The notes beneath the pieces are model-generated. The model did no database searches, had not been told where the DNA came from, and was given only the letters and a program-made list of their open reading frames with translations. DNA of 18,488 nt from a virus, in UHGV virus genome UHGV-1333851; one strand, 5' to 3'. A program made the translations under genes and the position numbers. This document shows, piece by piece, positions 1-15,767 of the stretch; within the stretch, counting starts at the first letter, position 1; the number at the start of each line of letters is the position of its first letter.

Positions 1-550
1 AACAACCAGTGCGTGGGTATATGCAAACAGGTTTTCTATTAATAGTGGTTCAACCTCATGGATTGATATGCGAAACCAAAATGTCATTTTTGGTAAAAAC
101 GCGGTATCAACAAGTTCCGCCCAAGCATTATTAAGACAAGACCATGCTGACAGAAAGTTCTTTATTGGTGGTCTTGGTAATAGCCAATTCGGCTTTTACA
201 TGATTAACAACTCAAGAACCGCAAATGGAACAGATGGTCAAGCATTCCTTGATAGCAGTGGTAACTTCCAGTGTGGTGGGCAAATAGTTCCCGCCAATTA
301 CAGTAATTTTGATTCCAGATATGCACTGAGAACATCTTACGTTTCCAGCGTAAGGATGGGGTCCGTTGCCAGTTATAGCCCACCAAACAACGAAACCTCC
401 TGGACTAAGAACCTTGGTAGCGGACTGGTTATGACAGGGATTATTGTTCAGGAAACAGGAAAAGCTTCTGCCGATAACATCGGTGGTATTTATTATCGGC
501 CAGTTCAATATTGTATCAACGGTACCTGGTATACAGCAGCATCAGTATAA
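1..550 (+). CDS. Tail fibre protein, C-terminal receptor-binding part (5' end outside window; fibre module A)
   Basis: Reading frame open from position 2 to TAA at 548-550 with no stop, so the gene continues upstream. The C-terminus (NYSNFDSRYAL...RPVQYCINGTWYTAASV) is paralogous to the C-terminus of the minus-strand fibre gene at 1684-2781. Followed 14 nt later by a tail fibre assembly gene with a strong SD. Confidence 0.8.
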   Translation, partial: TTSAWVYANRFSINSGSTSWIDMRNQNVIFGKNAVSTSSAQALLRQDHADRKFFIGGLGNSQFGFYMINNSRTANGTDGQAFLDSSGNFQCGGQIVPANYSNFDSRYALRTSYVSSVRMGSVASYSPPNNETSWTKNLGSGLVMTGIIVQETGKASADNIGGIYYRPVQYCINGTWYTAASV

Positions 551-564
551 AAAGGAGGCAGTAT

Positions 565-1080
565 ATGAATAATTTTAAAAACTTCACTTCCTACACGCCG
601 GGAGAAGATAAAAAAGAGCTTATTGATGCTGGAGTTTTATTCCTTCAGGATGAAAACGGTAATGACTGGTATGAATGTCAGAAGTTGTTTTCAGAATCTA
701 CAAGAATAGTTGCATATGATAGTAACGATATAGTTGTCAGCATTACTGATGACGTTTCTACCCTTTGGCCTATAGGATTGTCTGTAGCTGAAGTAGGAAG
801 TTTACCTGAAGATGTAGATATCAACGGTAATTGGGTGTTTAGAAACAACTCAGTTGTTAAACGCATATATTCTGATACAGAATTACAACAGCAAGCTGAA
901 TCAAAAAAGGCAGCCTTGCTTTCACACGCCGAATCAGTAATCGCAACTCTTGAGCGGGCAGTTAAATTGAATATGGCAACTGATGAGGAACGAGAAAAAC
1001 TGGAAGCGTGGGAGCGTTATAGCGTGTTGGTTTATCGTGTAGATACAGCTAAACCAGAATGGCCTGAAGAACCGGAGTGA
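565..1080 (+). CDS. Tail fibre assembly protein (Tfa/U-like)
   Basis: ATG at 565 preceded by AAGGAGG; the ORF-track start at 511 lacks an RBS. The N-terminal ~95 aa are highly similar to the convergent ORF at 1120-1665 (MxNFKxFTSYTP.EDK.EL..AGV.FL.DENGNDWYECQK), as expected for phage Tfa/U proteins. Confidence 0.85.
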   Translation: MNNFKNFTSYTPGEDKKELIDAGVLFLQDENGNDWYECQKLFSESTRIVAYDSNDIVVSITDDVSTLWPIGLSVAEVGSLPEDVDINGNWVFRNNSVVKRIYSDTELQQQAESKKAALLSHAESVIATLERAVKLNMATDEEREKLEAWERYSVLVYRVDTAKPEWPEEPE

Positions 1081-1085
1081 AGTAA

Positions 1086-1112
1086 AGGCCCGATTTATCG
1101 GGCCTATTTCAC
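1086..1112. terminator. Hairpin between convergent tfa genes, putative bidirectional terminator
   Basis: GGCCCGA-TTTA-TCGGGCC stem-loop followed by a T-rich tract (TATTTCACTTT), lying between the convergent 3' ends at 1080 and 1120. Confidence 0.5.
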
Positions 1113-1119
1113 TTTCCTT

Positions 1120-1665
1120 TTAAACTGGCTCAGTAGGCCAGGCGATCGCATTGAAAGTGGCTTTATCTGTTATTGTGTTGAAATCTAATGCATTAACAGC
1201 ATCTATATAGTCCAGCCAGGCGTCAAGAGCTGACTGTTCATCTTCAGATAATATTCTGCCGCGTAGTAATTTTGTCTGGCTAATGACGAGCTGTTGACGT
1301 GCGCTGTTAAGTCGCTCAGTGCGTCTTGATTCCGCCATGTTTTTTAACTCATCTGCGGTTCTTACTCTTTCAACCACATTTTCTCCGTCAAATATCCAGT
1401 TCCCATCAATATCTACTCCATCAGGCAGAGTTTCTATTTCTGCTACAGATGCCCCCACAGGCCAGAGTGTTGAAACATCGTTTGAAATACTCACGACGAT
1501 ATTATCGCTGTCATAAACTATCTTTATCGTATTCTCATGAAAAAATTTCTGACATTCATACCAGTCATTACCGTTTTCATCACGTAAAAATACAACTCCA
1601 GCTTCAACAAGCTCTGACTTATCTTCATCTGGGGTGTAGGATGTGAACTTTTTAAAATTAATCAT
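1120..1665 (-). CDS. Tail fibre assembly protein (Tfa-prime/U-prime-like)
   Basis: Paralog of 565-1080. Start placed at the ATG at 1665 (MINFKKF...), which has GGAG 7 nt upstream; the ORF-track start at 1677 has no RBS. The C-terminal half differs from the plus-strand copy. Confidence 0.85.
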   Translation of the reverse strand: MINFKKFTSYTPDEDKSELVEAGVVFLRDENGNDWYECQKFFHENTIKIVYDSDNIVVSISNDVSTLWPVGASVAEIETLPDGVDIDGNWIFDGENVVERVRTADELKNMAESRRTERLNSARQQLVISQTKLLRGRILSEDEQSALDAWLDYIDAVNALDFNTITDKATFNAIAWPTEPV

Positions 1666-1683
1666 TGTTTGCTCCATTAATAA

Positions 1684-2781
1684 TCATGCTGTGGCTGCTG
1701 TATACCAAGTGCCATTAATGCAATACTGTAAAGGCCTCAATCTTGCTGGGTCGTCACCATCAACTTCACCAATAATCCCAAGCCCTGTAATGACATAGCC
1801 AGCAGTTTCAAACATCGTGCCTTTCTGCATGGTATGAGTTTTATATGCCCCAAGTCTGACGCTGGTCACACAAGCCGTCTTTAATGCGTAACGAGAGTCA
1901 AAATTACTATAATTAGAGGGGGACACCTGACCATTTACAGCAAATGTTATGCTGTTATCAGTATTTCTCTGACTATAAAAATGCCATCCTGAATCATCAC
2001 CTAATTCAGCTACAACAGGACGAGTAGAAGCACCCCATAAATTAAATGTTACGTTCTTTGTGGATGTGTTAGAACTTGATAGTGAAAAAGTTTTACTATC
2101 TCCGGCCAGCAATTTTTTTAAAGAAAAAGCCGCATCATTCTGAAAGCGGAATACTCGCTGACCATTAGCGTAAACATCAAGAATGCCATCACCATTCTGT
2201 TTAAAACCAGTATCATTATCGCCAAGGACGATAGAGTTACCACCAAGAGCATTTGCAGTACCCAGACCAACAGAACCATTAACAGTTAAACCATTACCGA
2301 TTGAAACAGCACCATTGGCGTTGTTAATGGTAAGCGGCCTTAAACTATTCCATGTTCCCAGGCTGTCGCCCGAATTGGTCAACATGAAGTATGTGCTTGA
2401 ACCATCGTTTCGGATAAAGAATCCATAGTCACCCTGTACGATGCGGAAGCCATTTCCTGACTTGGAGACAATCTCACCATCAACCGTTAAACCGCCGGTA
2501 AGAGTTCCTCCGGTTATTGGCAATGCATCAATATCTTGAGGCGTGAGGTTAATGTCTTTTGAACCATCAAACGAAACGGAATTAATCTTTCTCGCGGTTT
2601 TCAGCTTTGTAGCCGTTGAGGCATTGCCGGACAGCTCACCAGAAATGCCACCAACAACTGTTAGATCACCAGTTATTGTGCCGCCTGAACTTTCCAGTTT
2701 TTTAGCAACATCACTCTTAATAGAGTCGATTTCTTTTTTCAGATTAGTTATATCTGCTGGTATCGTTGTCACTGTTGCCAT
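1684..2781 (-). CDS. Tail fibre protein, alternative receptor-binding module B, with its own start codon
   Basis: 365 aa. Contains a phage tail fibre repeat-like motif (NASTATKLKTARKINSVSFDGSKDINLT) and Gly-rich fibre sequence; the C-terminal ~80 aa are paralogous to module A (…RPLQYCINGTWYTAATA). ATG at 2781 has AAGGA 9 nt upstream. Confidence 0.8.
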   Translation of the reverse strand: MATVTTIPADITNLKKEIDSIKSDVAKKLESSGGTITGDLTVVGGISGELSGNASTATKLKTARKINSVSFDGSKDINLTPQDIDALPITGGTLTGGLTVDGEIVSKSGNGFRIVQGDYGFFIRNDGSSTYFMLTNSGDSLGTWNSLRPLTINNANGAVSIGNGLTVNGSVGLGTANALGGNSIVLGDNDTGFKQNGDGILDVYANGQRVFRFQNDAAFSLKKLLAGDSKTFSLSSSNTSTKNVTFNLWGASTRPVVAELGDDSGWHFYSQRNTDNSITFAVNGQVSPSNYSNFDSRYALKTACVTSVRLGAYKTHTMQKGTMFETAGYVITGLGIIGEVDGDDPARLRPLQYCINGTWYTAATA

Positions 2782-2790
2782 ATTAATTCC

Positions 2791-3069
2791 TTACGCCCAT
2801 TCCCGCAGCGGTTGTTCTAATTGAACTTCAAAACCATCAAACATTTGTTGTTTCAAACTGTTGTTTAAAATACGAACATTAACGAAGAAGCCATCATTTT
2901 TAATCACTGTTGGTTCTTCGTTCTCGCCGTTTGGTATTTCGGTATATGTAATACCTACAACATCAAGAAGGATGTTGTTTTGCAGTTCTTCATTATCGTG
3001 CCAGGATATACTCTCTAAAAAAGAGTCGTATTCTTCCCTGTCTCTGAATTTCAACGTAATATCTTTCAT
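2791..3069 (-). CDS. Small protein translationally coupled to the upstream fibre gene; putative fibre chaperone/assembly factor
   Basis: 92 aa. Its ATG overlaps the stop of the 3069-4568 fibre gene (TAATG); its stop lies 9 nt before the start of the next fibre gene. The chaperone role is inferred from position only. Confidence 0.4.
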   Translation of the reverse strand: MKDITLKFRDREEYDSFLESISWHDNEELQNNILLDVVGITYTEIPNGENEEPTVIKNDGFFVNVRILNNSLKQQMFDGFEVQLEQPLREWA

Positions 3070-4568
3070 TAAATAACCTCAGCCATTTGTTGGTCTGTTA
3101 ATGCTTTATGCCATATTCTGAAATTCCTGATATGACCAAATAAATGACGTAACCCTGCTGTAGTCTGGCCTCCAATACGGATGGTTGCAGAGTTCTGAAT
3201 ATAGGACCACGTAGTCTTTTTTTCGCTGGATATGCGCCCGTTACTTACTGAGCACGTAGACTGATCTGATTTTACACGCATCCCCATAACCATTTTTTCA
3301 AGCGATGCGTTTTCGTTTACCCGTCTGTTAGCTCCTCCAATATCGCAATAAGGAAATCCGTCTGGCCCATCTGCCGAAGATCCGAACCCAAGAATAATAG
3401 CCGCTCCGGTTTGATGACCGCTGGTATCAAAAACACGTGGCGCTGCATTTGGCGTTTTATACCAGTTCTTATGTACCTCACAAAGAACCGTAAAAGGAAG
3501 ATTATAAAGATTATTATTAATTGGAACTGTAACTATATCGCTTGCGCGGGTAGCCGCCGTCGTTCCTGAGATAATAAAAGATGATGCACAAGAACCATCC
3601 TCAACTTGAGGGGTAGACAGATAAATATAGTCTCCAGATACGGTTGCTCCGCCCTGCTTAGGAGAATACTGTATCTGAGATCCTATTTTTAACTCATCAT
3701 CAATTGCCTGGATTGTTGCCTCTGCAAAAATCCATCCAGTAGCTTCGTCCTTTCTGACTCTCGCTGTAATCCTTGATGCCGCGCCACCTGTCATATTAAT
3801 TTCAAGCGTTTGTGTATCAATATATGCATCACCAAGAAAAGTTGTTGCACTACCGTCATATTTATCAAAGCGGATACGCAACCTTACCTGTCGTTCTGTT
3901 TTAAAACGACATGAGGTTGTCACGTACTTGTTATCGCCTGAAACATCAACTGACTTTGTAGCAGCAATTGATGCCATATTAATGGCTGATGTTTGCCCAA
4001 TCAGAGAATCGTTACAGACAAACTTTCCATAGGTAAAACCAAAACTATCCGTCCCGGTTTCGGGAACATCCATATTTGACGATCGCCCCCAACTGGCAGG
4101 GTTTTCCGAATTGAGCATGTAGTTTGTTCGTTGTCCCTCAATAAGCAGGCCATCACGTTCAAATCGTGGCTCGTCAATGGCAGCCTCTGTCAGCACACCA
4201 GATTTATTTATATAGGTTGCTTTCGATGCGCGTTTAAACTTAACAACCTTGTCGCCAGGCATTGTTATTTCGTCGTCGCCAATAACAATCTTTTTATATG
4301 ATGGAGAAAAGCCCGCAATCATATCCAGTGAATCATTAAACGGTATCCACACATCTGGCAGCGGTTGAATAATCTTCCTGGCATCCTCCAGTGACAATGC
4401 TTCGACATCCGAGGCTGTTAAAGAAATATCTGCCGAACCGTCAAATGAAACGTTGTTAATCTTCCGCGCTGTTTTCAATTTCGTCGCGGTGTCGGCATTC
4501 CCTGTCAGCGCCCCGGTGATCCCGCCGTTGAAAGTCTGGCGTGCACTCCATGTGTTAGCCGTGCTCAA
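3069..4568 (-). CDS. Tail fibre variable segment C with a C-terminal LamG/concanavalin-like domain; probably expressed only as a fusion after inversion
   Basis: 499 aa from a TTG (ORF-track start) that has no SD. The frame stays open upstream through the crossover site to a stop at 4647-4649. Contains a tail fibre repeat (NADTATKLKTARKINNVSFDGSADISLT). The C-terminus (…LFGHIRNFRIWHKALTDQQMAEVI) resembles the terminal strand motif of LamG-like jelly-roll lectin domains. Confidence 0.7.
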   Translation of the reverse strand: MSTANTWSARQTFNGGITGALTGNADTATKLKTARKINNVSFDGSADISLTASDVEALSLEDARKIIQPLPDVWIPFNDSLDMIAGFSPSYKKIVIGDDEITMPGDKVVKFKRASKATYINKSGVLTEAAIDEPRFERDGLLIEGQRTNYMLNSENPASWGRSSNMDVPETGTDSFGFTYGKFVCNDSLIGQTSAINMASIAATKSVDVSGDNKYVTTSCRFKTERQVRLRIRFDKYDGSATTFLGDAYIDTQTLEINMTGGAASRITARVRKDEATGWIFAEATIQAIDDELKIGSQIQYSPKQGGATVSGDYIYLSTPQVEDGSCASSFIISGTTAATRASDIVTVPINNNLYNLPFTVLCEVHKNWYKTPNAAPRVFDTSGHQTGAAIILGFGSSADGPDGFPYCDIGGANRRVNENASLEKMVMGMRVKSDQSTCSVSNGRISSEKKTTWSYIQNSATIRIGGQTTAGLRHLFGHIRNFRIWHKALTDQQMAEVI

Positions 4569-4598
4569 CAGGGGGATCTTTTCACCGCTGGTACCGAG

Positions 4599-4624
4599 TT
4601 CTCTTAAACCAAGGTTTAGGATTG
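4599..4624. other. Site-specific inversion crossover site (hix/gix/cix-like)
   Basis: TTCTCTTAAACC-AA-GGTTTAGGATTG: two 12-bp imperfect inverted half-sites around a 2-bp core, matching the Hin/Gin/Cin family architecture (TTnTCnnAAACC NN GGTTTnnGAnAA). It is the only canonical AAACC-NN-GGTTT found in the window. Confidence 0.75.
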
Positions 4625-5176
4625 AAATGATGACGCCGGAAACTTCTTATAAAGCGTGGAAACAGCCACATCATAGATGATTGCAACCTGCTTACGGGGG
4701 ATACCCTTCTCCAGCAATCGCCGCATTTGCTGCCATGTTTCTTCTTGGTATTTAGGCCGACGCCCACCTATACGACCTTCTGCGCGAGCTGCATCAAGTC
4801 CAGCGCGTGTACGTTCAACGATAAGCTCACGTTCCATTTCTGCCAGCGCACCCATTACGTGAAAGAAAAAGCGCCCCATTGGTGTACTGGTGTCGATGGA
4901 GTCAGTGAGACTCCGGAAGTTAATGCCTCTGTCACGCAGCTCTTCCACCAGCACAACTAAGTGACGCATGCTGCGCCCAAGACGGTCTAACTTCCATACG
5001 ACCAGGGTATCACCTCTGGAAAGCATACGGAGTACCTTTTTTAACCCAGGGCGCTCAGCCTTTTTGCCGCTCGCCTTGTCCTCAAAAATTAGCTCACATC
5101 CTGCGCTTTCAAGAGCGTTTCGTTGTAAAGCAGTGTTTTGTTCATTTGTTGATACACGTACATAGCCTATTAGCAT
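4616..5176 (-). CDS. cin: DNA invertase, small serine recombinase of the Hin/Gin/Cin/Pin family
   Basis: 186 aa. MLIGYVRVSTNEQ…GDTLVVWKLDRLGRS…GRFFFHVMGALAEMERELIVERT…STLYKKFP matches the resolvase/invertase catalytic domain (catalytic Ser in VRVST) and the C-terminal HTH. ATG at 5176. The stop codon lies inside the crossover site. Confidence 0.95.
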   Translation of the reverse strand: MLIGYVRVSTNEQNTALQRNALESAGCELIFEDKASGKKAERPGLKKVLRMLSRGDTLVVWKLDRLGRSMRHLVVLVEELRDRGINFRSLTDSIDTSTPMGRFFFHVMGALAEMERELIVERTRAGLDAARAEGRIGGRRPKYQEETWQQMRRLLEKGIPRKQVAIIYDVAVSTLYKKFPASSFQS

Positions 5177-5302
5177 ATTTTCTGCTCACTATCGTTATTT
5201 ATAGCAAGCTGCGGATTTTAATTAACAAAACCAGTGTGTGTGGAAATCACAAAGTACATACCGTTTCCCAATGATGTTTATTTAACCATTAAGGAAATAG
5301 TT

Positions 5303-5584
5303 ATGTTTGATCTAAAAATCATTTTCATATCCATCTTTGGCGGAGTGCATTCGTTTCTGAATGGGGTTCGTGAAAAACGTTACGAAGCATCATGCAGGCA
5401 ATTGCTGGCCGAGTGTCTTGCTGCCGTACTTGCAGGCTTTATAGGCATGTGTTTCGCGGAATATAAGGGTATGGATGAAAGTCTTCAGAATTGCGTGACT
5501 CTTATTTGCAGCATCAATAACAGGCTCATTCTTGAAAGGTTACAAAGGCTTATCGATTCGTACCTCAATAGAAATGCCTCTTAA
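5303..5584 (+). CDS. Small membrane protein, holin-like (possibly LydC-like)
   Basis: Start placed at the ATG at 5303 (AAGGAAA 7 nt upstream) rather than the ORF-track start at 5234. Two hydrophobic segments (IIFISIFGGVHSFL, LAAVLAGFIGMCFA). First gene downstream of the invertase on the opposite strand. Confidence 0.4.
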   Translation: MFDLKIIFISIFGGVHSFLNGVREKRYEASCRQLLAECLAAVLAGFIGMCFAEYKGMDESLQNCVTLICSINNRLILERLQRLIDSYLNRNAS

Positions 5585-5604
5585 GCAACAAATGACCGGT
5601 TGAG

Positions 5605-5625
5605 AAGTTACTTTGCATACCATTA
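5605..5625 (+). promoter_or_regulatory. Candidate late-type promoter upstream of lydA-like gene
   Basis: GTTACTTTGCATACCAT: a TTTGCAT element abutting a TANNNT hexamer (TACCAT). The same arrangement occurs upstream of lyz. Possibly a late-activator-dependent promoter. Confidence 0.25.
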
Positions 5626-5651
5626 CCTCCTGACAACGTAGGAGGGAACTT

Positions 5652-5981
5652 GTGCTTGACACACAGGAATTAGCTCCAGTTGCTATTGCGCTCCTGCTTT
5701 CAGTAATTGGTGGGATAGGCACGTTCCTGATGGATGTCCGAGATGGTCGCCAGTCTGGCAATTTGTTGGGATTGGTTACGGAGATCTTTGTTGCAGTGAC
5801 AGCTGGCGCGGTGGCGTACCTATTGGGGCAACACGAAGGCTGGGAGTTATCAATTACGTACTTAATGGTAACGATAGCCAGCAATAACGGTCATGAGGTG
5901 ATTTCAGGGATGAAACGAGTGAATATCGATAGCATTCTGAATGTTCTTACAAGTTTGGTGAAAAAGGGAGGTGGGAAATGA
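5652..5981 (+). CDS. lydA: Holin-like membrane protein (LydA-like)
   Basis: 109 aa. GTG start at 5652 with GGAGGG just upstream. Two or three predicted TM segments (VAIALLLSVIGGIGTFL, IFVAVTAGAVAYLL). Lies immediately upstream of the Hdf/DarA-like genes, as lydA does in P1 by my recollection. Confidence 0.55.
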   Translation: MLDTQELAPVAIALLLSVIGGIGTFLMDVRDGRQSGNLLGLVTEIFVAVTAGAVAYLLGQHEGWELSITYLMVTIASNNGHEVISGMKRVNIDSILNVLTSLVKKGGGK

Positions 5982-6421
5982 TTGGCTGGGGTGTATGCGT
6001 TCTTGCGTTAGCCTTAGCCGATCGCTATTTGCTAAAACGCAAGGACATCACGCATTTAGAACTTGGTGATGTGGAAATTAAACAGGGCTTCATCCGGGTG
6101 CCGTTCAAATACCGGTCTAAATTCCCGTTTTTGCGCGGCGCAACGGTCAGATATTGGATCCGCGATGTTCAGAAGCCAACGACAGTGATTGAAGGCGAAC
6201 AACGTTGTCTGACGTCGGCTGAACAGGGCGAAAACAGTGAATGGTTGTACATACCCACTGAATATATGGGTAAAGGAGAGCGACTGTGGCATTTCAACGT
6301 CATGGTTACGCATGGCGACTCGTTCATTAACCCGTTGTATCGGATTTTCCCTGTTACTCAGAAAATCCGCAGAAGTTACGTAATAAATCTCGCACAGGAT
6401 GTGTCAGATGACGAAAAATAA
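5978..6421 (+). CDS. lydB: LydB-like protein (putative holin antagonist/lysis regulator)
   Basis: 147 aa. ATGA start/stop overlap with the preceding gene and a strong SD (GGGAGGTG). N-terminal hydrophobic segment. Assignment rests on position and size only. Confidence 0.45.
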   Translation: MIGWGVCVLALALADRYLLKRKDITHLELGDVEIKQGFIRVPFKYRSKFPFLRGATVRYWIRDVQKPTTVIEGEQRCLTSAEQGENSEWLYIPTEYMGKGERLWHFNVMVTHGDSFINPLYRIFPVTQKIRRSYVINLAQDVSDDEK

Positions 6422-7010
6422 GTATGCAACGGTCGATTTTGACCAGGTTAATGAAAAGGGGCTGAAATCCCTTATCGCGGCGATCAATAAAACCGGTGTT
6501 ACGGTAATTGAGGTTGACTCCAGCAACCGCGCAACAACGAAAGATGGCGTTAAAGTTAAAACCGCAAAGCTGGTTCTTAACGACGGACAAATTCTTGCCA
6601 TACAGGTAAACGATACTGGCGATATATCGTCTGTGAAACTGAATGGAAAAGCTATTCCTAACGCTCAGTCGCCGGATATCAAGACGCTTGGTACCGTCAT
6701 GGGACAGGCGGCCCGCAAAAACTCCGCAAAATTCCAGAAATCACTGATCGCCAAAGCGAAGCGTGTTGCCAATCCGGTAGACAAGAAACCGGCAGTTAAA
6801 TCCAACTTTCAGCGCCTGCAAGAAGCAAAACAGCGGAATGCTCAGGTGGTTGCCGCTTATAAGTCCGCGCAGAATTCGGTGTCTTTCAATCAACAGCAGA
6901 TCACTGATTTGCGGGCGAAGCTGGATAAGGAGACGGGCCGACTCAATAACGAAAAGGCACGGAATGGCGAACTTAAACGTCGTCTTAAGCAACTGAAAGC
7001 AGGAAATTAA
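6408..7010 (+). CDS. hdf: Hdf-like protein (paralog of a DarA fragment)
   Basis: Start at the ATG at 6408 (AGGA 9 nt upstream). Shares a region with the next, larger gene (L.DGQ…NSAKFQ.…K). C-terminal coiled-coil-like K/R/E-rich tail. Confidence 0.55.
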   Translation: MTKNKYATVDFDQVNEKGLKSLIAAINKTGVTVIEVDSSNRATTKDGVKVKTAKLVLNDGQILAIQVNDTGDISSVKLNGKAIPNAQSPDIKTLGTVMGQAARKNSAKFQKSLIAKAKRVANPVDKKPAVKSNFQRLQEAKQRNAQVVAAYKSAQNSVSFNQQQITDLRAKLDKETGRLNNEKARNGELKRRLKQLKAGN

Positions 7011-7011
7011 C

Positions 7012-8931
7012 ATGGAACAGTTCAATATCAATAAAGGGGTGACGATCAAGCCTGGGCTTGACGTGCTTCCCCCGCCAGTGACTGATGATGAATATCGCGC
7101 ATTAATGGCCGGTGAGGACCGCTATCTGATGACGGAATCCAACACCCTGGAGGAAATCGAGGCTACGTTCTTCTATGACACGCCGATCCACTGGTGTGCT
7201 ACGGATTTACTGGAGGCGATTAGTTCTACTCGTTTGCAGTTACACCGGACCATGCAGGCATTTGTCCGGGCATTGAACCAGAAGCTGAATGGTACCGGAA
7301 TCTCTGCGGGGAGTGATAAAACGGGGGATGTGGCCCAGAGCGGCGCGCGCGCGATCGGCGGCGCTGAAATTGGTCGGGCACGTAACGTTAACGGGCTGCC
7401 GGTCCTGCCAGCCATTATTCCGCTCAGTGATGGTCAGACTATCAGCATTTTGTTTCATAGCCCGACAGCGGAAAACCGGATCACCAATAGCGATACGCTG
7501 GTTGCTTTCCAGTTCTTACTGAATAAAAAAGACGTTACTCACACCGTTGCTCCGATGAGTGGACGTGATATGACGCTGGCGCAGGTCACCATGAAACTTG
7601 CCAACCTTGCAGAGAAAAACTCGGCAAAATTCCAGCGTGCGCAGAAGAAGAAAAAAGCCCTGGTTGATGAAATAACCCAACTACAGGCTGACAGTGACCA
7701 GAAAGAGGATGCCATGAGCGACCTCGCGGATCAGGTGGCAGCGGTAGAAGGCCAGAAGGCAGATCTGGAGCAGAAAATTAACGCGGTTGCTTCGGAAGCG
7801 GATTCTCTTTATCAAGAAAATGAGCGTTTGCAGGCGGAGATTGATCAGCTCAATCGCACTGGTGGGCGCGATACCATTGCTCCAGCGGGGATGACTGGTG
7901 GGCACTCTCGCGCGCTGACGGATCGCCTTGCCAGTATCAAAAATCGTATGCATATGGACGGGGAAGCGACGCTCAGTAATGGTGCATCAATGAAGCAATT
8001 CATTGGGGATGGCGAAGGGTATATCCAGTTAACCGATCCGGATGGCAGCGTATACATGATCAAGGCTAAATCCATACAGGGTGTGGACATGGCAGAAGCG
8101 ATCGGCAAGCTGTTTAAAGCCTATAAAGCGGGTAATGTATCGGAATATCTGGTCCAACCAGAAGAACATAAACCGGAAAACGTCGAACCTGAACCAGCGG
8201 AGGATACCGGTAGCTCTTCGCCTGAACCAGAAGTCTCTGTAGGTGCATATCGATATGCCCTGCAAATGCGTCCGGCGGCCCCTGGCGCAATACCTGAAGG
8301 TAACAAAGCGATTCTGCCGCGCCCTGATGAAGGTGACCCGTATTATGAATATGCACGCTACGGCATTGCTACTTACGATACCCCGCTTTCTGATCAGCAA
8401 ATGAGTGAGTACGACCTGAAGTTATTGCCTCGCGAGGATTCTTTCGACTTCCTGGCGAAGACACTTACTAATGGTCCGTTTGGCAAATATGCACAAAAAG
8501 CTCTGGAGCTGGCCACCAGCTCACCAGACGAGTTCCGCGTAATGCTGAAAACTCAGTTTCAAAAAACTTTCCCCAATATTGCGTTTCCTGGGGGCACTGG
8601 CACCGAGAAAATGGTGCAGAGCATGATCAATGCATTGCAGGCCGAAGTCGGTGAGATTACTCAGCCAGAACCGGCCCCGGCACAGCCTGATGAAACGGTT
8701 AGCGAAGCAGATGCAGAGGCTAATAAAGCCATTGAATATCTCAATAACGTGATGGATATGCAAAGCACTGACATGGCGGAGATCCGTAACGCCCGGGGTA
8801 ATGTCCGGGAAGCTATTGCAGCCCTTCAGGCTGCCGGGCGTTTTGAGGAAAACGAAGAGCTGGTTAATGGCGCAGCTCGCCACCTGGCTGATCTGCTGGT
8901 AGCAATCCAGAAAGCGGGGGTAGCGGCATGA
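7012..8931 (+). CDS. darA: DarA-like head-internal antirestriction / head morphogenesis protein
   Basis: 639 aa with an internal coiled-coil segment (QLQADSDQKEDAMSDLADQVAAVEGQKADLEQKINAV…). Paralogous to the preceding Hdf-like gene. Size and operon position match P1 DarA by recollection; not verified. Confidence 0.55.
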   Translation: MEQFNINKGVTIKPGLDVLPPPVTDDEYRALMAGEDRYLMTESNTLEEIEATFFYDTPIHWCATDLLEAISSTRLQLHRTMQAFVRALNQKLNGTGISAGSDKTGDVAQSGARAIGGAEIGRARNVNGLPVLPAIIPLSDGQTISILFHSPTAENRITNSDTLVAFQFLLNKKDVTHTVAPMSGRDMTLAQVTMKLANLAEKNSAKFQRAQKKKKALVDEITQLQADSDQKEDAMSDLADQVAAVEGQKADLEQKINAVASEADSLYQENERLQAEIDQLNRTGGRDTIAPAGMTGGHSRALTDRLASIKNRMHMDGEATLSNGASMKQFIGDGEGYIQLTDPDGSVYMIKAKSIQGVDMAEAIGKLFKAYKAGNVSEYLVQPEEHKPENVEPEPAEDTGSSSPEPEVSVGAYRYALQMRPAAPGAIPEGNKAILPRPDEGDPYYEYARYGIATYDTPLSDQQMSEYDLKLLPREDSFDFLAKTLTNGPFGKYAQKALELATSSPDEFRVMLKTQFQKTFPNIAFPGGTGTEKMVQSMINALQAEVGEITQPEPAPAQPDETVSEADAEANKAIEYLNNVMDMQSTDMAEIRNARGNVREAIAALQAAGRFEENEELVNGAARHLADLLVAIQKAGVAA

Positions 8932-9293
8932 CACTATCAGCTATTGAGTTAATGGACCTCAGCGATAAGTTGGATGCTCTGATGTCCAAAGCGGCTACCG
9001 CGAGTGGCATGGAGTTGCTGGATATCAGCGATGAAATTGACCAGATCATGCAACAGATGGGGTACGGCGCGTCTGGCGGCGGTAGTGGCGAGGAGAAACA
9101 ACCTTCGGAACATGATGGTGTGCCAAAACTGGTTGCTGATTTCCTGGCTGATAAATTCGTCGATCAGAGCACTGATGCATTTATCGGTACGTTACAGGAC
9201 TTGAGTCAATATGTTGGCACATACATCGACCTGGACCAGGTTAAACAGCACACGGCGGCATGGATAGCCGCCAACATTAAAGAGGCAGCATAA
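8928..9293 (+). CDS. ddrA: DdrA-like small acidic protein
   Basis: 121 aa. ATGA overlap with the darA-like stop. Positional analog of P1 ddrA. Confidence 0.4.
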   Translation: MTLSAIELMDLSDKLDALMSKAATASGMELLDISDEIDQIMQQMGYGASGGGSGEEKQPSEHDGVPKLVADFLADKFVDQSTDAFIGTLQDLSQYVGTYIDLDQVKQHTAAWIAANIKEAA

Positions 9294-9305
9294 GGCGTAA
9301 CAGGG

Positions 9306-12293
9306 ATGAGCTTAAGCGATCAGGTGGTAATGGCCACCAGCATAGAAACGCTGATCGAGCTGCTAAAGAACCTGCCCGATTATGGGCGGGTTTCGTATGT
9401 GGTGACAGCGAAGGGAGACGAGGTAAAAACAGCGTTTGATATCGTCGATGCCTCAGCTCTTTTGGTATCCAATACTCTGGATGGGAAAATTAATCCTGAC
9501 TATCCCCAGGAACTTCAACCGCGCGACCGGACCCGCGCATCCAGCCTTCTTCAGGTTAACCAGATATCCAAAGATTTGCGGCCTGCTCAGCTTACCGACT
9601 CCGGTTTATCCAGCCATGGCGCGCCGATAATTGGTGAGGACAATGCCGTTGAGTCAGGTAATGGGCGGACCATGGGGATCATTAAAGCCTATCAGGACGG
9701 TAATGCGGATCGGTATCGGGAGTACCTGATTGAACATGCGACCGAATTCGGCATACGGCCTGAAAAGGTTGAATCAATGACGGCTCCGGTACTGGTGCGC
9801 CGCCGGTTAACGAAGGTTGACCGTGTTCAGTTTGCCAAGGACTCAAATATTTCTGATCTCCAGGAAATGGCAGCCAGTGAAAAGGCTTTTGTTGATGCCG
9901 ACAGCATAACTCCGGCGATGATGGCGCTTTTTAACCCGTCAGAAAGCGGAGATCTGCTTAGCCGCAGTAATGACGCGTTTATTCGCGGATTTATGACGCA
10001 AGTTGGTGCCACACAGGCGGCTGGCCTTGTAACTGAAGATGGGCGACCAACACGGCAACTTGTAGACCGTATACAAAACGCGATCTTTGCCAAGGCATAT
10101 AAGGATGCGCGCCTGGTAAGGATGGTTGCAGAAGAACCTGATCCGGATATGCGTAATGTTCTGACGGCGCTTAATGCGGCAGCCAATGATTTTGTCCAGA
10201 TGCAGGCTTTATCAGGAGAAGCGCACAAGCAGGCTGTGACAACTATTGTTGATGGCATTGAGACAGCGGATAGCCTCGATAAAAAGGCGCTGGCAGCATT
10301 GAAAGATGCGGTAGACCTGGTAAGGCAATCGAAGGAGTCAGGCCAGCATATTACCGATGTTATTGCTCAGGGGGATATGTTCAGCGAAACGGCCCCGGAA
10401 GTGAAAGCACTCGCGTTGTTCATCGTCGCGAATAACCGTAGCGCGAAGCGTATGGCCACCGCCTTTAAGTTGATGGCTCAACGTATCAATGATGAGTTAC
10501 AGCACCAGGGCCAGGCGCTGGGGGATATGTTTGGCGGCGGCGATGTGTCGTTACAGGATATCCTTCGCCAGGTGTCTCAGGAACTGGAAAACGAAGGCAT
10601 GCAAGGGATATCCGGCGGTCTTTTCGAGTCCGTTTCCGGCGGTAGTTACAACGGTGTTGCTCCGTATACCAGTTTGCTATTACATCGGGCATCCGGCATC
10701 AAAGACATTATTCATCTGATCAGGCTGCTTTCCCGCACAGATCCCCAGGATGAACAGCTTGTACAAGTGCTTGCGCATTTTGTTCGAATGCCTGTTGCCG
10801 ACGTGAAAAAATGGTGCCGATTATTCGGTATCAGCAATTCGTTACTTCGCGGCTTGTTAAATCACGCATCCTCCCTTGGGCGCGATGGCTTTGACGAGAT
10901 AGCGCAGGCGATAAAAAACGGAGATATGCCACCAGCTATTGACTGGTTTTCCATTCGCCCAACCAGGGTGAAAGCATTCCTTAGCGCGGCGCATTCGGCA
11001 TCACCATTGGCAGAAATGGTTCAGAGGTTGTCGCTCATATTCACAGACCATAGCGCGTTGGGTGATCTGACTCTGGACGAGATGAAAGAAGCCTCCATTC
11101 AGTGGGCCGATCAACAAAATGAGGTTAACTCAGACTTCTTGCCAGCATTCAGGAAGGCCGTTAGTAAAGTGGATGATGCCCGTGGAATTCTGAAGGCATT
11201 TAAGGCATTGCAAAGTCGGGTTAATAAACATGTCGGTGATATCGATGGGGTAACGGCGGAAGGCAGGGATATCCTTAAAGAGCACGGCATAACGCCAGAG
11301 TTTATTGATGAGATCAGGACGGATATGCAGCGTGAGGTCGTATCGTCCCTGCAAATCGTAGCCAGAGCGTTGGCGGATGCTAATCCGAAGAGTGCGGCCA
11401 TTGTTAACCGGGTTATTGGTGATATTGAAGCATCGGAGGGCATGGGGGCGCTGAAACTCTTCCTTTCGCGAGCGTTTAATCCTAACGGCAATATTCTCCC
11501 CAGCATTATTGGTGAGGCTAAAAAGCATGTCAGTGAAGAAGAACTTGAGCAGCTTAACCAGCTACTCAATCGATTTTCATATATCCCGCAGAAACGCTGG
11601 CAAATGAATCAGCGTAGTATGGATTCGGTCTACGAGAAAGTGTTATCTGCCATGAACAGTGCGATCGCCAACTCATCCGTATCAGAAGAAAAAGCTCTTG
11701 AGTGGGCCGACTCTTTTATCACGGAAGAAGTGGAAGAAGCCCGCGCTGGACAGAATGGTGGAATAGACCTGCGCAAGGAACTTGCTGATATTTATCGCCT
11801 GACCGGCGGGAAAATATCAACCTTATCAAGGGTAATTCACCACAAGGGTAGGGCGTATGCAAATCTTAATGGTGTTGTTGCTGTCGATTTGCACGATGAA
11901 AATGCAAATGCACTGTGGCACGAGCTGGGTCATCATCTTGAGTACAGTAACCCGGGTTTGTTAGAGAAAGCCAGGTCATTCCTGAAGGCCAATGTTGAAG
12001 GGGATAAGCCATCTTTCGTTAATATTGGTGGGCGTGGCAAGCCTGAATGGTGCTTCAGATCTCGATTGAGTGATATTTATATGGCGAAGGTATACCCGCC
12101 TGTCTCAGTGAGTAATTCTGGTAAATTTCGACACAAATCTCCGACAATTTCCAAAACGTCAGCAACGGAAGTATTCTCTATGGCTCTTCAGTTGTATCAT
12201 GACAAAGAGGCCGCTGCCGCATCACTGATGAATGGTGACGGATTGCTGGAACTGTTATTAGGTGTGGCAAAGGAGCTAAATAATGCAGATTAA
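9306..12293 (+). CDS. ddrB: DdrB-like large virion-associated multidomain protein with a zincin HExxH motif
   Basis: 995 aa. HExxH motif near the C-terminus (ALWHELGHHLEYSNPG). N-terminal region has a possible ParB/Srx-like signature (ESGNGRTMG), unverified. Last large gene of the Dar-like operon. Confidence 0.5.
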   Translation: MSLSDQVVMATSIETLIELLKNLPDYGRVSYVVTAKGDEVKTAFDIVDASALLVSNTLDGKINPDYPQELQPRDRTRASSLLQVNQISKDLRPAQLTDSGLSSHGAPIIGEDNAVESGNGRTMGIIKAYQDGNADRYREYLIEHATEFGIRPEKVESMTAPVLVRRRLTKVDRVQFAKDSNISDLQEMAASEKAFVDADSITPAMMALFNPSESGDLLSRSNDAFIRGFMTQVGATQAAGLVTEDGRPTRQLVDRIQNAIFAKAYKDARLVRMVAEEPDPDMRNVLTALNAAANDFVQMQALSGEAHKQAVTTIVDGIETADSLDKKALAALKDAVDLVRQSKESGQHITDVIAQGDMFSETAPEVKALALFIVANNRSAKRMATAFKLMAQRINDELQHQGQALGDMFGGGDVSLQDILRQVSQELENEGMQGISGGLFESVSGGSYNGVAPYTSLLLHRASGIKDIIHLIRLLSRTDPQDEQLVQVLAHFVRMPVADVKKWCRLFGISNSLLRGLLNHASSLGRDGFDEIAQAIKNGDMPPAIDWFSIRPTRVKAFLSAAHSASPLAEMVQRLSLIFTDHSALGDLTLDEMKEASIQWADQQNEVNSDFLPAFRKAVSKVDDARGILKAFKALQSRVNKHVGDIDGVTAEGRDILKEHGITPEFIDEIRTDMQREVVSSLQIVARALADANPKSAAIVNRVIGDIEASEGMGALKLFLSRAFNPNGNILPSIIGEAKKHVSEEELEQLNQLLNRFSYIPQKRWQMNQRSMDSVYEKVLSAMNSAIANSSVSEEKALEWADSFITEEVEEARAGQNGGIDLRKELADIYRLTGGKISTLSRVIHHKGRAYANLNGVVAVDLHDENANALWHELGHHLEYSNPGLLEKARSFLKANVEGDKPSFVNIGGRGKPEWCFRSRLSDIYMAKVYPPVSVSNSGKFRHKSPTISKTSATEVFSMALQLYHDKEAAAASLMNGDGLLELLLGVAKELNNAD

Positions 12294-12594
12294 AATCGCA
12301 GCGCCATTAGGCGGAGATGCCATTATCGAATTTGATGATAATGAAGAAGTTTCCGGGCGTTTAAGCATTATCTCCGGTGACATTACCGAGGACATGATCG
12401 CTGAAGCCATAGCTGGGGCAAATCCCAATAGCTATATGGGATTCGTTAACACCCTTGATGCTCCCGCAAGTGATGTTCTCCGAACGCTGCATCTTTACGC
12501 TGGCTGGTTTGTTGATTGGCCAGTAGTAGATGGTGGCGATGAGGACGACGACGACGATGATTTTGGTGATCATGTAGACCAGATCGTATATTGA
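12283..12594 (+). CDS. Small highly acidic protein with a poly-Asp tract
   Basis: 103 aa. Start overlaps the ddrB-like stop (ATGCAGATTAA). C-terminal DGGDEDDDDDDFGDHVDQIVY. Followed directly by a strong terminator. Confidence 0.5.
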   Translation: MQIKIAAPLGGDAIIEFDDNEEVSGRLSIISGDITEDMIAEAIAGANPNSYMGFVNTLDAPASDVLRTLHLYAGWFVDWPVVDGGDEDDDDDDFGDHVDQIVY

Positions 12595-12596
12595 AG

Positions 12597-12628
12597 AAAT
12601 CCCGCCAATCGGCGGGATTTTTTTTAAT
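12597..12628. terminator. Rho-independent terminator, bidirectional between convergent operons
   Basis: AAATCCCGCC-AATC-GGCGGGATTT, a perfect 10-bp stem, followed by a T run. Sits between the plus-strand stop at 12594 and the minus-strand stop at 12624. Confidence 0.75.
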
Positions 12629-13412
12629 CGCTTTCCACTTCTTCCGTGGTGTTTTCTTGCAGTTCTGTTAATGCAGCACGACATAGGTTCCGGGCATTGG
12701 CTATAGCCACACTTTTGACTTCATCCGTCATCGTGCAGGTAATGTACTGATCGAGTTCTTCAGCGCGGATGATGCTTTTGCCAATCAGAAACTGTATTTG
12801 CCAGAGCAGATCGGCATCCATAATCAGAATTTCTGCCGGGCCTTCAGGGCCAGCCGGGAAGGAAACATAAGACTGTTTGCCCAGGCCGATAACTCGACAA
12901 CTTGCTTCAAGAATTGCGCGCTTGAGGTCTGACTTTGTAACGGAAACAGGTTGGTTTTCACCAGTGATTATGCCGTTGACATGGAAGTGGAAGGGCATGT
13001 AGCTTGAAATACGCTCTACTTTCCACACGCCAGCAAGCGATCCTTCATGCAGCACAATGGGGGTAACCGCGAGTTTCATCTCACCATATAACTGCTGGCA
13101 GATAGCTGGATTGCTGAATACATCCAAAGGTTCACACTCAAACAGCGGCGCAATCTGCATGAGGTCCATCATGGTCATACCAGGGGTACGAGCAGTAATG
13201 AATCTGCGCATGCCAGTATCCATTGTGCGCCAGATAGCTACACCATGCTTTTTGCTCACTTCTTCAGTAAAGCCAAGGTGGCACATGATGGTTTTTTCGA
13301 TAGCCAGATCAGAGATCGAAACCTTTTCGCCAGGCACACCATCATTATTGATGGTCACTTCGACACTCTGACCATTACGCAGGCGGTATTGAATTGCTTT
13401 AGTATTTTCCAC
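12624..13412 (-). CDS. Hypothetical protein, function unknown
   Basis: 262 aa. GTG start at 13412 with GGAGTG 8 nt upstream; start lies 7 nt after the stop of the preceding gene. No motif I can assign. Confidence 0.55.
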   Translation of the reverse strand: MENTKAIQYRLRNGQSVEVTINNDGVPGEKVSISDLAIEKTIMCHLGFTEEVSKKHGVAIWRTMDTGMRRFITARTPGMTMMDLMQIAPLFECEPLDVFSNPAICQQLYGEMKLAVTPIVLHEGSLAGVWKVERISSYMPFHFHVNGIITGENQPVSVTKSDLKRAILEASCRVIGLGKQSYVSFPAGPEGPAEILIMDADLLWQIQFLIGKSIIRAEELDQYITCTMTDEVKSVAIANARNLCRAALTELQENTTEEVESD

Positions 13413-13418
13413 GTTAAA

Positions 13419-14096: not shown

Positions 14097-14293
14097 AGTC
14101 TTTCCTCTGCTTAAAACCTGATGTATTGCGCCTTCAGGTGGGGCAGGATTGTTTTCCCACCAGCGAAAGCAATATCTCGGGGTGTTCTTTTCGTGAAAAG
14201 CGCGTGCCATTGCCAACTTTGGCGTTTGTTTGCGAGTTCGTGCTTTTGTCGGCGTCTGGACCACCGCTTTTCTTTCAGTCGTTTTTTACACAT

Positions 14294-14782: not shown

Positions 14783-14844
14783 TTATCTTACCTAATAAAA
14801 TAAATTAATTAGAGCAATAATGTATATCTTTGAAACGTAGCTAA

Positions 14845-14866
14845 CAAGTGATTTGCATTATCCTGT
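14845..14866 (+). promoter_or_regulatory. Candidate late-type promoter upstream of lyz
   Basis: AGTGATTTGCATTATCCT: a TTTGCAT element abutting TATCCT (TANNNT), about 85 nt upstream of the lyz ATG. Confidence 0.25.
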
Positions 14867-15756: not shown

Positions 15757-15767
15757 TAGTTAACGAT

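What the first reader, a model, noticed from the sequence alone, without database searches (positions are those of the whole stretch)
1684..3069. Fibre module B has its own RBS and ATG inside the invertible segment
In Mu and P1 the alternative variable fibre parts lack start codons and depend on fusion at the crossover site. B starts at an ATG with AAGGA 9 nt upstream, just after orf92. It could be made as a free 365-aa fibre-like protein in either orientation: by read-through from the invertase gene in the present one (no terminator visible between 4568 and 4616), or from the late fibre promoter after inversion. It may be an accessory fibre or the product of a cassette insertion that split an ancestral Sv-prime.
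Basis: partly seen in the sequence, partly recalled or inferred. Interest (0 to 1): 0.55.

Follow-up and report, generated by a model that had tools for sequence, protein, structure and literature searches.

The report
Free second fibre gene in P1 switch
One arm of this P1-like phage's invertible tail-fibre switch carries a borrowed four-gene fibre kit, so flipping the DNA swaps a one-protein fibre for a likely two-protein one, whose second protein (B) is a complete gene with its own start.

Summary
B (1684-2781, minus strand, 365 aa) is an intact ORF. Its ATG comes 12 nt after an in-frame TAA, and an AAGGA overlaps the orf92 stop codon.

It is not an artefact. The same junction occurs in 20 complete E. 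coli genomes and 13 PLSDB plasmids, and the segment is found in both Cin orientations.

B is a mosaic:
- Residues 1-85, orf92 and the lectin-like end of Sv' form a 1.9-kb cassette.
- That cassette replaces about 1.06 kb of shaft in a relative (MH422554), where the B tip is contiguous with a 1149-aa S protein.

The gene order [quoted passage not shown] recurs in T1-like, T5-like, lambdoid, Seuratvirus/Nonagvirus and P2-like phages. The distal parts of those second fibres are unrelated.

Best reading (inferred, not shown): B is a second fibre subunit. It is co-transcribed with Sc::Sv', docks by its N-terminus on the Sv' end or on orf92, and carries a Mu S-type tip folded by U'.

The module is analogous to DT57C LtfA/LtfB but not homologous to it. 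I rate it a new variant of known kinds, of moderate interest.

The parts
4616..5176 (-). cin-type serine DNA invertase (186 aa). It reads toward the invertible segment.
   Evidence: Pfam Resolvase 4.6e-51 plus HTH_7; PHROG DNA invertase; 97% nucleotide identity to P1 cin.
4599..4624 (.). cixL crossover site TTCTCTTAAACCAAGGTTTAGGATTG, with central AA at 4611-4612. It overlaps the cin stop codon and is the only cix-like site in the window.
   Evidence: Related plasmids carry the recombinant junction AGTTCTCTTAAACCAAGGTATTGGATAACA, which joins the Sv' half to the Sc half.
3069..4610 (-). Sv': an open frame with no start codon, fused to Sc only after inversion. From about residue 64-88 onward it is a lectin-like fibre end shared with many unrelated phages.
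   Evidence: Translation is open up to the cix site. NCBIfam GTA_spike_fiber 1.4e-14. PDB 6tb9 RcGTA head spike fibre 3.8e-6. Laminin_G_3 matches below its cut-off. Identity to the fibre ends of nine other phages is 41-97%. It is annotated as a 966/967-aa fused S in U2501 and AREA_494.
2791..3069 (-). orf92: a small protein that always directly follows this type of fibre end. Function unknown; it may be a cap, connector or chaperone.
   Evidence: PHROG 1361, 1.8e-35. 188 phage records hold a homologue, each next to a tail-fibre gene. The AlphaFold2 model has pLDDT 86.6. No solved-structure match; only uncharacterised phage proteins match in BFVD. 40 representative clusters.
2788..2792 (-). Shine-Dalgarno AAGGA for B, overlapping the orf92 TAA stop (2791-2793).
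   Evidence: Read directly from the sequence.
1684..2781 (-). B: a free-standing second fibre protein of 365 aa.
2527..2781 (-). B residues 1-85, the cassette-derived part. Residues 1-16, MATVTTIPADITNLKK, are the motif shared with second fibres of other phages and are the proposed docking peptide.
   Evidence: Breakpoint at 2526 against MH422554. N-terminal alignment of seven second fibres. tblastn of the N-terminus finds 46 phage records. 22 motif-initiated ORFs occur in the fetched loci.
2275..2526 (-). B residues 86-169 (Gp34_trimer-type domain). An inverted copy of this stretch lies in the other arm, just left of the window start. It is the recombination junction between the cassette and the P1-type tip.
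   Evidence: In U2501, window 2275-2429 matches locus positions 156-2 on the opposite strand at 98.7%. In AREA_494, 2275-2526 matches 3346-3095 at 87%. The inner segment is inverted in L018 and L020.
1684..2274 (-). B residues 170-365: a P1/Mu S-type distal receptor-binding tip.
   Evidence: 92.7% identical to the end of the contiguous S of MH422554. PDB 8ju3 Mu S/S' tip, 2.8e-6.
1120..1677 (-). U': tail-fibre assembly chaperone matched to the B tip. The likely start is the ATG at 1665, which has GGAG upstream.
   Evidence: Pfam Caudo_TAP 5.4e-21. 93.5% identical to the U that follows the homologous tip in MH422554.
1086..1105 (.). G+C-rich hairpin between the two convergent arms, terminator-like.
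565..1080 (+). U: chaperone of the arm that is currently expressed.
   Evidence: Pfam Caudo_TAP 1.8e-29.
2..550 (+). C-terminal end of Sv, the arm currently fused to Sc. The frame enters from the left edge of the window.
   Evidence: PHROG tail-fibre hits; translation.

Best explanation
The window is the C segment of a P1-like phage-plasmid, caught with the Sv-U arm fused to Sc. The silent arm is a four-gene fibre module: Sv' (no start codon, ending in a lectin-like domain), orf92, B and U'.

Shown:
- B is a complete gene with its own RBS and ATG.
- It is a mosaic. A cassette made of the Sv' end, orf92 and B residues 1-85 was recombined into an older contiguous Sv'. The joint lies in a conserved shaft domain (B residues 86-169).
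- Closely related P2-like phage-plasmids carry the same module without an invertase in the 12.6 kb examined (L005).
- Cin inverts the segment at the cix core.
- The same B N-terminal part is found on at least five different distal tips.

Inferred:
- After inversion the late fibre transcript encodes Sc::Sv', orf92, B and U' together.
- Trimeric B, whose Mu S-type tip is folded by U', attaches through its first ~16-30 residues to the Sv' end, to orf92, or to both.
- The result is a composite fibre, either branched or jointed end to end. The Sv' end, which resembles a GTA head-spike fibre and a lectin, may supply a second binding site.
- The switch therefore toggles between a one-protein fibre (Sc::Sv plus U) and a two-protein fibre.
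- B is controlled by operon position, as U and U' are, not by translational fusion.
For: - ORF and signals.
- Fibre nature of B and chaperone nature of U'.
- Breakpoints: window 1-2526 and 4426-4622 are colinear with the contiguous S of MH422554, while 2527-4425 is new. Window 2275-4615 is 95% identical to the P2-like plasmid pMB9880_3, which has fibre, orf92, a 346-aa second fibre and a Tfa next to baseplate genes.
- Recurrence: orf92 homologues occur in 188 phage records. In 10 of 13 contexts inspected the next gene is a fibre protein starting M[AV]xTxTxIPxDITxLK. These include Tritos, VogelGryff, tunus, JenP2, L6jm, L011 and the plasmids. In 13 Drexlerviridae records listed in both searches, the motif starts a few to about 16 nt after orf92.
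- Docking inference: the first-fibre proteins share only their last ~430-520 residues, so their N-terminal parts fit different virions. The second fibres share only their N-termini. The only partners common to all these virion types are therefore the Sv'-type end and orf92.
- Constant N-terminus with variable tips: 22 intact ORFs; residues 1-168 are mostly 86-100% identical among the plasmids (73-74% over the first ~100 residues in L006 and L023), on at least five distinct tips.
- Inversion: the window, L018 and L022 carry the 'off' junction. L002, L007, L019, L020 and L021 carry the 'on' junction and an intact fused S, 966/967 aa in L002, L007 and L019.
- E. marmotae plasmids carry the four-gene layout on both arms.
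- In E. coli genomes the B N-terminal DNA is found in the same 20 genomes that hold the orf92 junction.
Against: - There is no direct evidence that B is in the virion or contacts Sv' or orf92.
- Three orf92-bearing phages (phage 21, rolling, FFH2) lack a second fibre. orf92 therefore cannot be only a connector for B, and the Sv'-type fibre works without a partner.
- The orf92 fold gave no functional clue.
- Divergence among the P1-like copies is too low to measure selection on B.
- The E. coli co-occurrence reflects recent common ancestry and is not independent evidence.
- One relative (L006) has its B-type gene flagged as partial by PGAP, although an intact 296-aa ORF is readable.
Confidence: 0.6

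Rival explanations
1. B is a leftover. The cassette brought a self-sufficient Sc::Sv' fibre plus orf92, and the cut-off old tip happens to retain a start codon. It is made or not made without consequence and is not part of the virion.
For: Phage 21, rolling and FFH2 use the Sv'-type fibre plus orf92 with no second fibre. PGAP flags a B-type gene as partial in the ST2747 record. No selection signal could be measured.
Against: The ATG, RBS and first ~16-25 residues are homologous to second-fibre N-termini in virulent phages of five other groups. All 22 copies are intact, and they carry at least five different tips, each followed by a matching chaperone. The same layout is kept in P2-like plasmids and on both arms of the E. 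marmotae plasmids. A decaying remnant would not keep being re-tipped.
Confidence: 0.12
2. B is a virion fibre but attaches directly to the baseplate or to Sc, independently of the Sv' end and orf92. It would be a true separate accessory fibre present in either orientation if transcribed from cin.
For: B lies downstream of cin on the same strand with no terminator-like site between them. No contact with Sv' or orf92 has been shown.
Against: The same N-terminal motif occurs in siphoviruses (T1-like, T5-like, lambdoid, Queuovirinae) and in myoviruses (P2-like, P1-like). Their tail tips and baseplates are unrelated. The only shared neighbours are the Sv'-type end and orf92.
Confidence: 0.08
3. B is normally joined to Sc by a further site-specific inversion at an internal crossover site, as in the multiple-inversion Min system of p15B. 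The ATG would then be irrelevant.
For: Relatives differ by inversion of an inner segment that swaps the two tips.
Against: The window has a single cix-like site, and related loci have only the two outer sites. The inner inversion is bounded by a 252-bp inverted repeat that encodes a conserved shaft domain, which fits homologous recombination. In the swapped forms B keeps its own N-terminus and ATG.
Confidence: 0.04
4. The split is a sequencing or assembly error in what is really one long Sv' ORF.
For: MH422554 has the B tip contiguous with S.
Against: The difference is a 1.9-kb replacement holding two extra coding units, not a frameshift. The arrangement is found at 97-100% identity in 20 complete genomes and 13 plasmids from different laboratories, and in both orientations.
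Confidence: 0.01

Closest known systems
P1 C segment / Mu G segment (Cin/Gin-invertible tail-fibre switch: Sc + Sv/U versus Sv'/U')
   Same: It has an adjacent serine invertase and a 26-bp cix site that overlaps the cin stop codon. Sv' lacks a start codon and is fused to Sc at the crossover. There are two convergent arms, each ending in a Tfa/U chaperone gene with its own start.
   Different: One arm holds four coding units instead of two. Sv' ends in a lectin-like domain taken from lateral or side fibres of other phages. It is followed by orf92 and by a complete second fibre gene, B. The P1-type tip that needs U' is therefore on a separate polypeptide, switched by operon position rather than by fusion.
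Multi-subunit or branched lateral tail fibres, e.g. LtfA/LtfB of T5-like phages DT57C and DT571/2 (PMC4728585, PMC10713586); multi-protein LTFs noted in the BASEL phages (PMC8594841)
   Same: There are two tandem fibre genes. The second lacks any virion-attachment domain and has a short conserved N-terminus that is shared across phages while its distal part varies. This is the same genetic logic that led to the LtfB-on-LtfA model.
   Different: There is no sequence homology. The B N-terminus against the LtfB N-terminus gives E = 1.4, Sv' against LtfA gives nothing, and no orf92 homologue lies in the 30 kb around the DT57C ltf genes. DT57C has no small gene between ltfA and ltfB. B uses a separate U-type chaperone, not a C-terminal S74 self-cleaving chaperone. 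The locus is under invertase control.
Three-gene side or lateral fibre module of lambdoid, Drexlerviridae, Queuovirinae and Tequintavirus phages (e.g. Tritos TRITO_19-21, VogelGryff bas25_0022-0024, tunus_81-83, JenP2, L6jm ORF134-132)
   Same: The Sv'-type fibre end is homologous (41-90% identity) and so is orf92 (46-64%). The second-fibre N-terminal motif and the gene order are the same, with a 9-12 nt spacer before the second gene in most.
   Different: In those phages the second protein ends in an S74-type or other tip and has no Tfa gene. Here, and in the P2-like plasmids, the tip is of Mu S/P1 S type with a Tfa/U chaperone. The first gene has no start of its own because Cin fuses it to Sc.
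T4 long tail fibre (gp34, gp35, gp36, gp37 and chaperone gp38)
   Same: A fibre built from separately encoded trimeric segments joined end to end. The gene order is proximal subunit, small joint protein, distal subunit, chaperone. B contains a Gp34_trimer domain.
   Different: orf92 showed no similarity to any solved structure, and orf92 also occurs where there is no distal subunit. The resemblance is only in layout; any homology between orf92 and gp35 was not tested specifically.

Membership tests
Cin/Gin/Pin-type invertible tail-fibre segment | Serine invertase gene next to the segment | tested here: met
   Resolvase plus HTH_7 domains; 97% nucleotide identity to P1 cin.
Cin/Gin/Pin-type invertible tail-fibre segment | Inverted 26-bp crossover sites at both ends, with exchange at the central dinucleotide | tested here: met
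   cixL lies at 4599-4624. The second site is off the left end of the window, but near-identical plasmids show both parental and recombinant junction halves.
Cin/Gin/Pin-type invertible tail-fibre segment | Variable fibre part without its own start, expressed only as a fusion to the constant part | tested here: met
   This holds for Sv': the frame is open to the cix site with no plausible start, and it is fused into a 966/967-aa S in L002 and L007. It does not hold for B, which is a complete gene. That is the point of the finding.
p15B Min-type multiple inversion system / shufflon | Several crossover sites inside the segment | tested here: not met
   There is one cix-like site in the window and only two outer sites in related loci.
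DT57C LtfA/LtfB (phiEco32 gp14/gp15) branched fibre family | LtfB-type N-terminal ~45 residues and an LtfA-type docking region | tested here: not met
   No significant similarity of B to the LtfB N-terminus (E = 1.4) or of Sv' to LtfA. DT57C and phiEco32 were absent from the 46 tblastn hits.
DT57C LtfA/LtfB (phiEco32 gp14/gp15) branched fibre family | Second fibre physically carried by the first | not testable with these tools
   This needs virion proteomics, cryo-EM or complex prediction.
Sv'-type fibre end, orf92, second-fibre module (no published name found) | Fibre gene ending in the conserved ~430-aa lectin-like domain, with the orf92 start overlapping its stop | tested here: met
Sv'-type fibre end, orf92, second-fibre module (no published name found) | The next gene begins M[AV]xTxTxIPxDITxLK and has a variable distal part | tested here: met
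Mu S / P1 S-type distal fibre with Tfa/U chaperone | Homology to the Mu S shaft and tip, with a Caudo_TAP chaperone gene immediately downstream | tested here: met
   5yvq 4.6e-37 and 8ju3 2.8e-6. U' matches Caudo_TAP at 5.4e-21. Tip and chaperone are co-inherited at 93% identity with MH422554.

The most novel reading that the evidence does not exclude
A single ~4.6-kb segment would generate four fibre states through two nested inversions.

- Cin inversion at the cix sites chooses between a one-protein fibre (Sc::Sv) and a two-protein composite fibre (Sc::Sv' with a lectin-like end, orf92 and docked B).
- A second inversion between the 252-bp inverted repeats in the shaft domain swaps the two Mu S-type tips, together with their chaperones, between the fused and the free subunit.

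The free subunit B would then be a plug-in receptor-binding protein. Its docking peptide works on siphovirus and myovirus fibres alike.
Probability: 0.3. Interest if true: 0.6.

Novelty: new variant of a known kind. Interest (0 to 1): 0.45.

Why it matters
P1 and its relatives are standard tools for transduction and for delivering CRISPR payloads, and their host range is set by the C segment. If B is a docked second receptor-binding subunit, three things follow.

- Some natural P1-like phage-plasmids switch between fibres of different architecture, not just between different tips.
- The short N-terminal peptide of B, together with the Sv'-type end and orf92, would be a portable adaptor. It would already be used by T1-like, T5-like, lambdoid, P2-like and P1-like phages, which is useful for engineering host range.
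- It would assign a role to orf92 (PHROG 1361) and to second proteins now annotated as 'hypothetical' or 'chaperone' in nearly 200 phage genomes.

If B is not incorporated into the virion, the finding is an ordinary recombination scar.

Tried and rejected
- Internal cix sites near the B start (a Min-like system): none found.
- dN/dS on the B N-terminus and orf92 among P1-like copies: only 0-13 nucleotide differences, so uninformative.
- Function of orf92 from its fold. The model is good (pLDDT 86.6), but the best PDB matches are insignificant ribosomal or PII-like folds with TM about 0.4. BFVD returns only uncharacterised phage proteins. A profile search against PDB sequences returned nothing, and there is no Pfam or NCBIfam hit.
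- Homology to DT57C LtfA/LtfB: none.
- A B-specific promoter: one weak sigma-70-like match inside orf92, with fewer promoter-like sites in the region than in shuffled sequence (8 against 13.2 expected). This is not evidence.
- The search for related loci with orf92 as a single protein gave only 4 loci. The search for homologous proteins gave 14. Context was therefore taken from annotated phage records instead.
- Literature searches for this module in P1-like elements or lambdoid side fibres found no description. Two searches failed because 'P1' is too short a search term.
- My first impression that the E. marmotae plasmids have identical fibre ends on both arms was wrong. orf92 and the start of the second gene are identical (831-bp inverted repeat), but the two fibre ends are only 38% identical.
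Full report
**Setting.** The window comes from a P1-like phage-plasmid. Positions 4468-5400 are 97% identical to P1 cin and its flank. Positions 5200-18488 are 97-98% identical to SJ46 and other P1-like phages, covering the holin/lysis genes, darA, portal and head-processing genes.

On the minus strand lie, in order:
- cin, at 4616-5176.
- A single cix site, at 4599-4624.
- Sv', an open frame without a start codon, at 3069-4610.
- orf92, at 2791-3069.
- B, at 1684-2781.
- U', at 1120-1677.

On the plus strand are the end of Sv (to 550) and U (565-1080). A terminator-like hairpin at 1086-1105 separates the two convergent arms.

**The observation.** B is a 365-aa ORF. Its ATG (2781-2779) is preceded by CGTAAGGAATTAAT. 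The AAGGA overlaps the TAA stop of orf92, and that TAA is in frame with B, so the ATG is the first possible start. orf92 begins in TAATG, overlapping the Sv' stop. U' begins 6 or 18 nt after the B stop. B is clearly a fibre protein: Pfam Gp34_trimer at 5.7e-31, PHROG tail-fibre families, and solved relatives Mu S (5yvq, 4.6e-37), T4 gp34 and the Mu S/S' tip 8ju3.

**Not an artefact.** The 601-bp junction holding the B start, orf92 and the Sv' end is found at 97-100% identity in 13 PLSDB plasmids and 20 complete E. coli genomes. These include the AREA_494 plasmid, where the junction is 100% identical. The segment occurs in both orientations:
- The window, L018 and L022 have the Sv' half-site joined to the cin half-site (AGTTCTCTTAAACCAAGGTTTAGGATTGAA in the window and L018; a slightly diverged copy in L022).
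- L002, L007, L019, L020 and L021 have it joined to the Sc half-site (...AAACCAAGGTATTGGATAACA).
- In that second group PGAP annotates an intact fused S, 966/967 aa in L002, L007 and L019, followed by orf92 and U'. The B-type ORF between them is annotated in L002, L007 and L020 and readable in the others.

**Origin.**
- In the P1-like phage MH422554, B residues 80-365 are the last 286 residues of a contiguous 1149-aa S protein (92.7% identity). The gene that follows is 93.5% identical to U'.
- At the DNA level, window 1-2526 and 4426-4622 are colinear with that phage. Window 2527-4425 (1.9 kb) replaces about 1.06 kb of its shaft sequence.
- The replacement carries the Sv' end, orf92 and B residues 1-85.
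- The start codon was not a by-product of the split. Window 2275-4615 is 95% identical to 48-kb P2-like phage-plasmids such as pMB9880_3. There a 792-aa fibre gene next to baseplate genes is followed by orf92, a 346-aa second fibre and a Tfa chaperone, with no invertase in the 12.6 kb examined.

**A recurrent module.**
- orf92 belongs to PHROG 1361. Homologues occur in 188 phage records, always beside a tail-fibre gene.
- The groups include Drexlerviridae, Tequintavirus/Epseptimavirus, Nonagvirus/Seuratvirus, Dhillonvirus, lambdoid phages and Vequintavirinae.
- The upstream fibre proteins share only their last ~430-520 residues with Sv' (41-97% identity). Their N-terminal parts differ, as expected for attachment to different virions.
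- In 10 of 13 contexts inspected, the gene after orf92 is a fibre protein beginning M[AV]xTxTxIPxDITxLK. The rest of that protein is unrelated between phages: S74-type ends in Tritos, VogelGryff, JenP2 and L6jm, and Mu S-type ends in the plasmids.
- In 13 Drexlerviridae records that appear in both searches, the motif starts a few to about 16 nt after orf92.
- Phage 21, rolling and FFH2 have the fibre end and orf92 but no second fibre.

**Constant N-terminus, variable tip.**
- Across the fetched loci I found 22 intact motif-initiated ORFs.
- Among the P1-like, D6-like and P2-like plasmids, residues 1-168 are mostly 86-100% identical to B (73-74% over the first ~100 residues in L006 and L023).
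- The distal parts fall into at least five types, each followed by its own chaperone gene.
- Two E. marmotae plasmids carry the four-gene layout on both arms of the invertible segment.

**Inner inversion.** Window 2275-2526 (B residues 86-169) has an inverted copy in the other arm, just beyond the left edge of the window. In pCFSAN058545_02 and pEC361_3 the ~2.3-kb inner segment between these repeats is inverted relative to the window. There the free protein carries the Sv-type tip with U, and the fused protein carries the B-type tip with U'. No cix-like site bounds this inner segment, so homologous recombination is the simplest cause.

**Mechanism.**

Shown:
- The gene structure.
- The mosaic origin.
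- Inversion at the cix core.
- Recurrence of the module.
- Re-tipping of B.

Inferred:
- In the Sv' orientation the fibre transcript encodes Sc::Sv', orf92, B and U' together.
- B trimers, folded at the tip by U', dock through their N-terminal peptide on the Sv' end and/or orf92 to give a composite fibre.
- The comparative argument is that the motif is shared by phages with unrelated tail tips and baseplates, and the only common neighbours are the Sv'-type end and orf92.
- The Sv' end resembles the RcGTA head spike fibre (NCBIfam 1.4e-14; 6tb9 at 3.8e-6). It also has a sub-threshold Laminin_G_3 match, so it may bind glycan itself.

Unresolved:
- The geometry, branched or end-to-end.
- The role of orf92. 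Its model is confident (pLDDT 86.6) but resembles nothing characterised. Because orf92 also occurs without a second fibre, it must serve the Sv'-type end in some way.

**Expression in the present orientation.** orf92, B and U' lie downstream of cin on the same strand, with no terminator-like site between. Sc::Sv' cannot be made in this orientation, so under the docking model free B would have nothing to dock on.

**Comparison with known systems.**
- The locus meets the defining features of a Cin-type invertible fibre segment.
- It fails the test for a Min-type multi-site system.
- It works like the LtfA/LtfB branched fibres of DT57C (PMC4728585, PMC10713586) and like the multi-protein lateral fibres noted in BASEL (PMC8594841). 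It is not homologous to LtfA/LtfB, and the 30 kb around the DT57C ltf genes holds no orf92 homologue.
- I found no paper that describes this module or its presence in P1-like switches.

**Verdict.** This is a real feature of moderate interest. It is a new variant that combines two known kinds: an invertase-controlled fibre switch and a multi-subunit fibre. The sequences are already public but unexplained.

Noticed in passing
window 2275-2526, and its inverted copy just left of window position 1 (seen in L002 2-156 and L007 3095-3346): A 252-bp inverted repeat encodes the shaft domain of both fibres. The ~2.3-kb inner segment, which holds both tips and both chaperones, is inverted in pCFSAN058545_02 (L018) and pEC361_3 (L020) relative to the window. 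This swaps the tips between the fused and the free fibre.
   Followed up: partly
window 2779-2793: The orf92 stop codon TAA is in frame with the B ATG (TAA GGA ATT AAT ATG). A 9-nt spacer, also in frame, is seen in Tritos, JenP2, L6jm and pMB9880_3, and a 12-nt spacer in tunus. VogelGryff has 2 nt, so programmed read-through is unlikely. The conservation probably reflects the RBS.
   Followed up: partly
L021 and L022 (E. marmotae plasmids NZ_CP099353, NZ_CP056699): Both arms of the invertible segment carry fibre end, orf92, second fibre and Tfa. An 831-bp inverted repeat (98.6%) spans orf92 and the start of the second gene. The two fibre ends are only 38% identical.
   Followed up: partly
L005 7945-7974 (pMB9880_3, a 48.9-kb P2-like phage-plasmid): A cix-like sequence, AGTTCTCTTAAACCAAGGTACTGGATAACA, sits inside the fibre gene of a phage-plasmid with no invertase gene in the 12.6 kb examined. 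It may be a relic or a target for an invertase supplied in trans.
   Followed up: no
L006 4116-4661 and L023 2862-3149: In the ST2747 record and in pPSS-10_3, the B-type protein has a different tip (ending ...NIAFNYIVRLA). An acetyltransferase gene (serine acetyltransferase or DapH-like) lies in the fibre region between the Tfa gene and the lysis genes; no cin gene was seen in these two loci.
   Followed up: no
window 1086-1105: A G+C-rich hairpin, AGGCCCGATTTATCGGGCCT, lies exactly between the convergent U and U' genes. It probably terminates whichever arm is transcribed.
   Followed up: no
P0032 (3172 aa) and P0048 (590 aa): Two long proteins contain 9 and 7 repeated stretches that match orf92 residues ~8-57. 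This suggests the N-terminal half of orf92 also exists as a repeat unit in large proteins.
   Followed up: no
phage records MG065692 (Campylobacter phage C13) and MG065666 (Campylobacter phage A12a), plus Listeria-labelled records: Records labelled as Campylobacter or Listeria phages carry coliphage-type fibre, orf92 or other window-like sequences at about 80% nucleotide identity. They are probably mislabelled or contaminated entries.
   Followed up: no
window 5200-18488: The rest of the window is ordinary P1-like backbone (holin/lysis genes, darA, portal and head-processing genes), 97.6% identical to Salmonella phage SJ46. The match is split into 2 pieces there and 3 in the P1 records. SJ46 has an insQ transposase annotated under the match, so there may be an insertion or deletion difference.
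   Followed up: no
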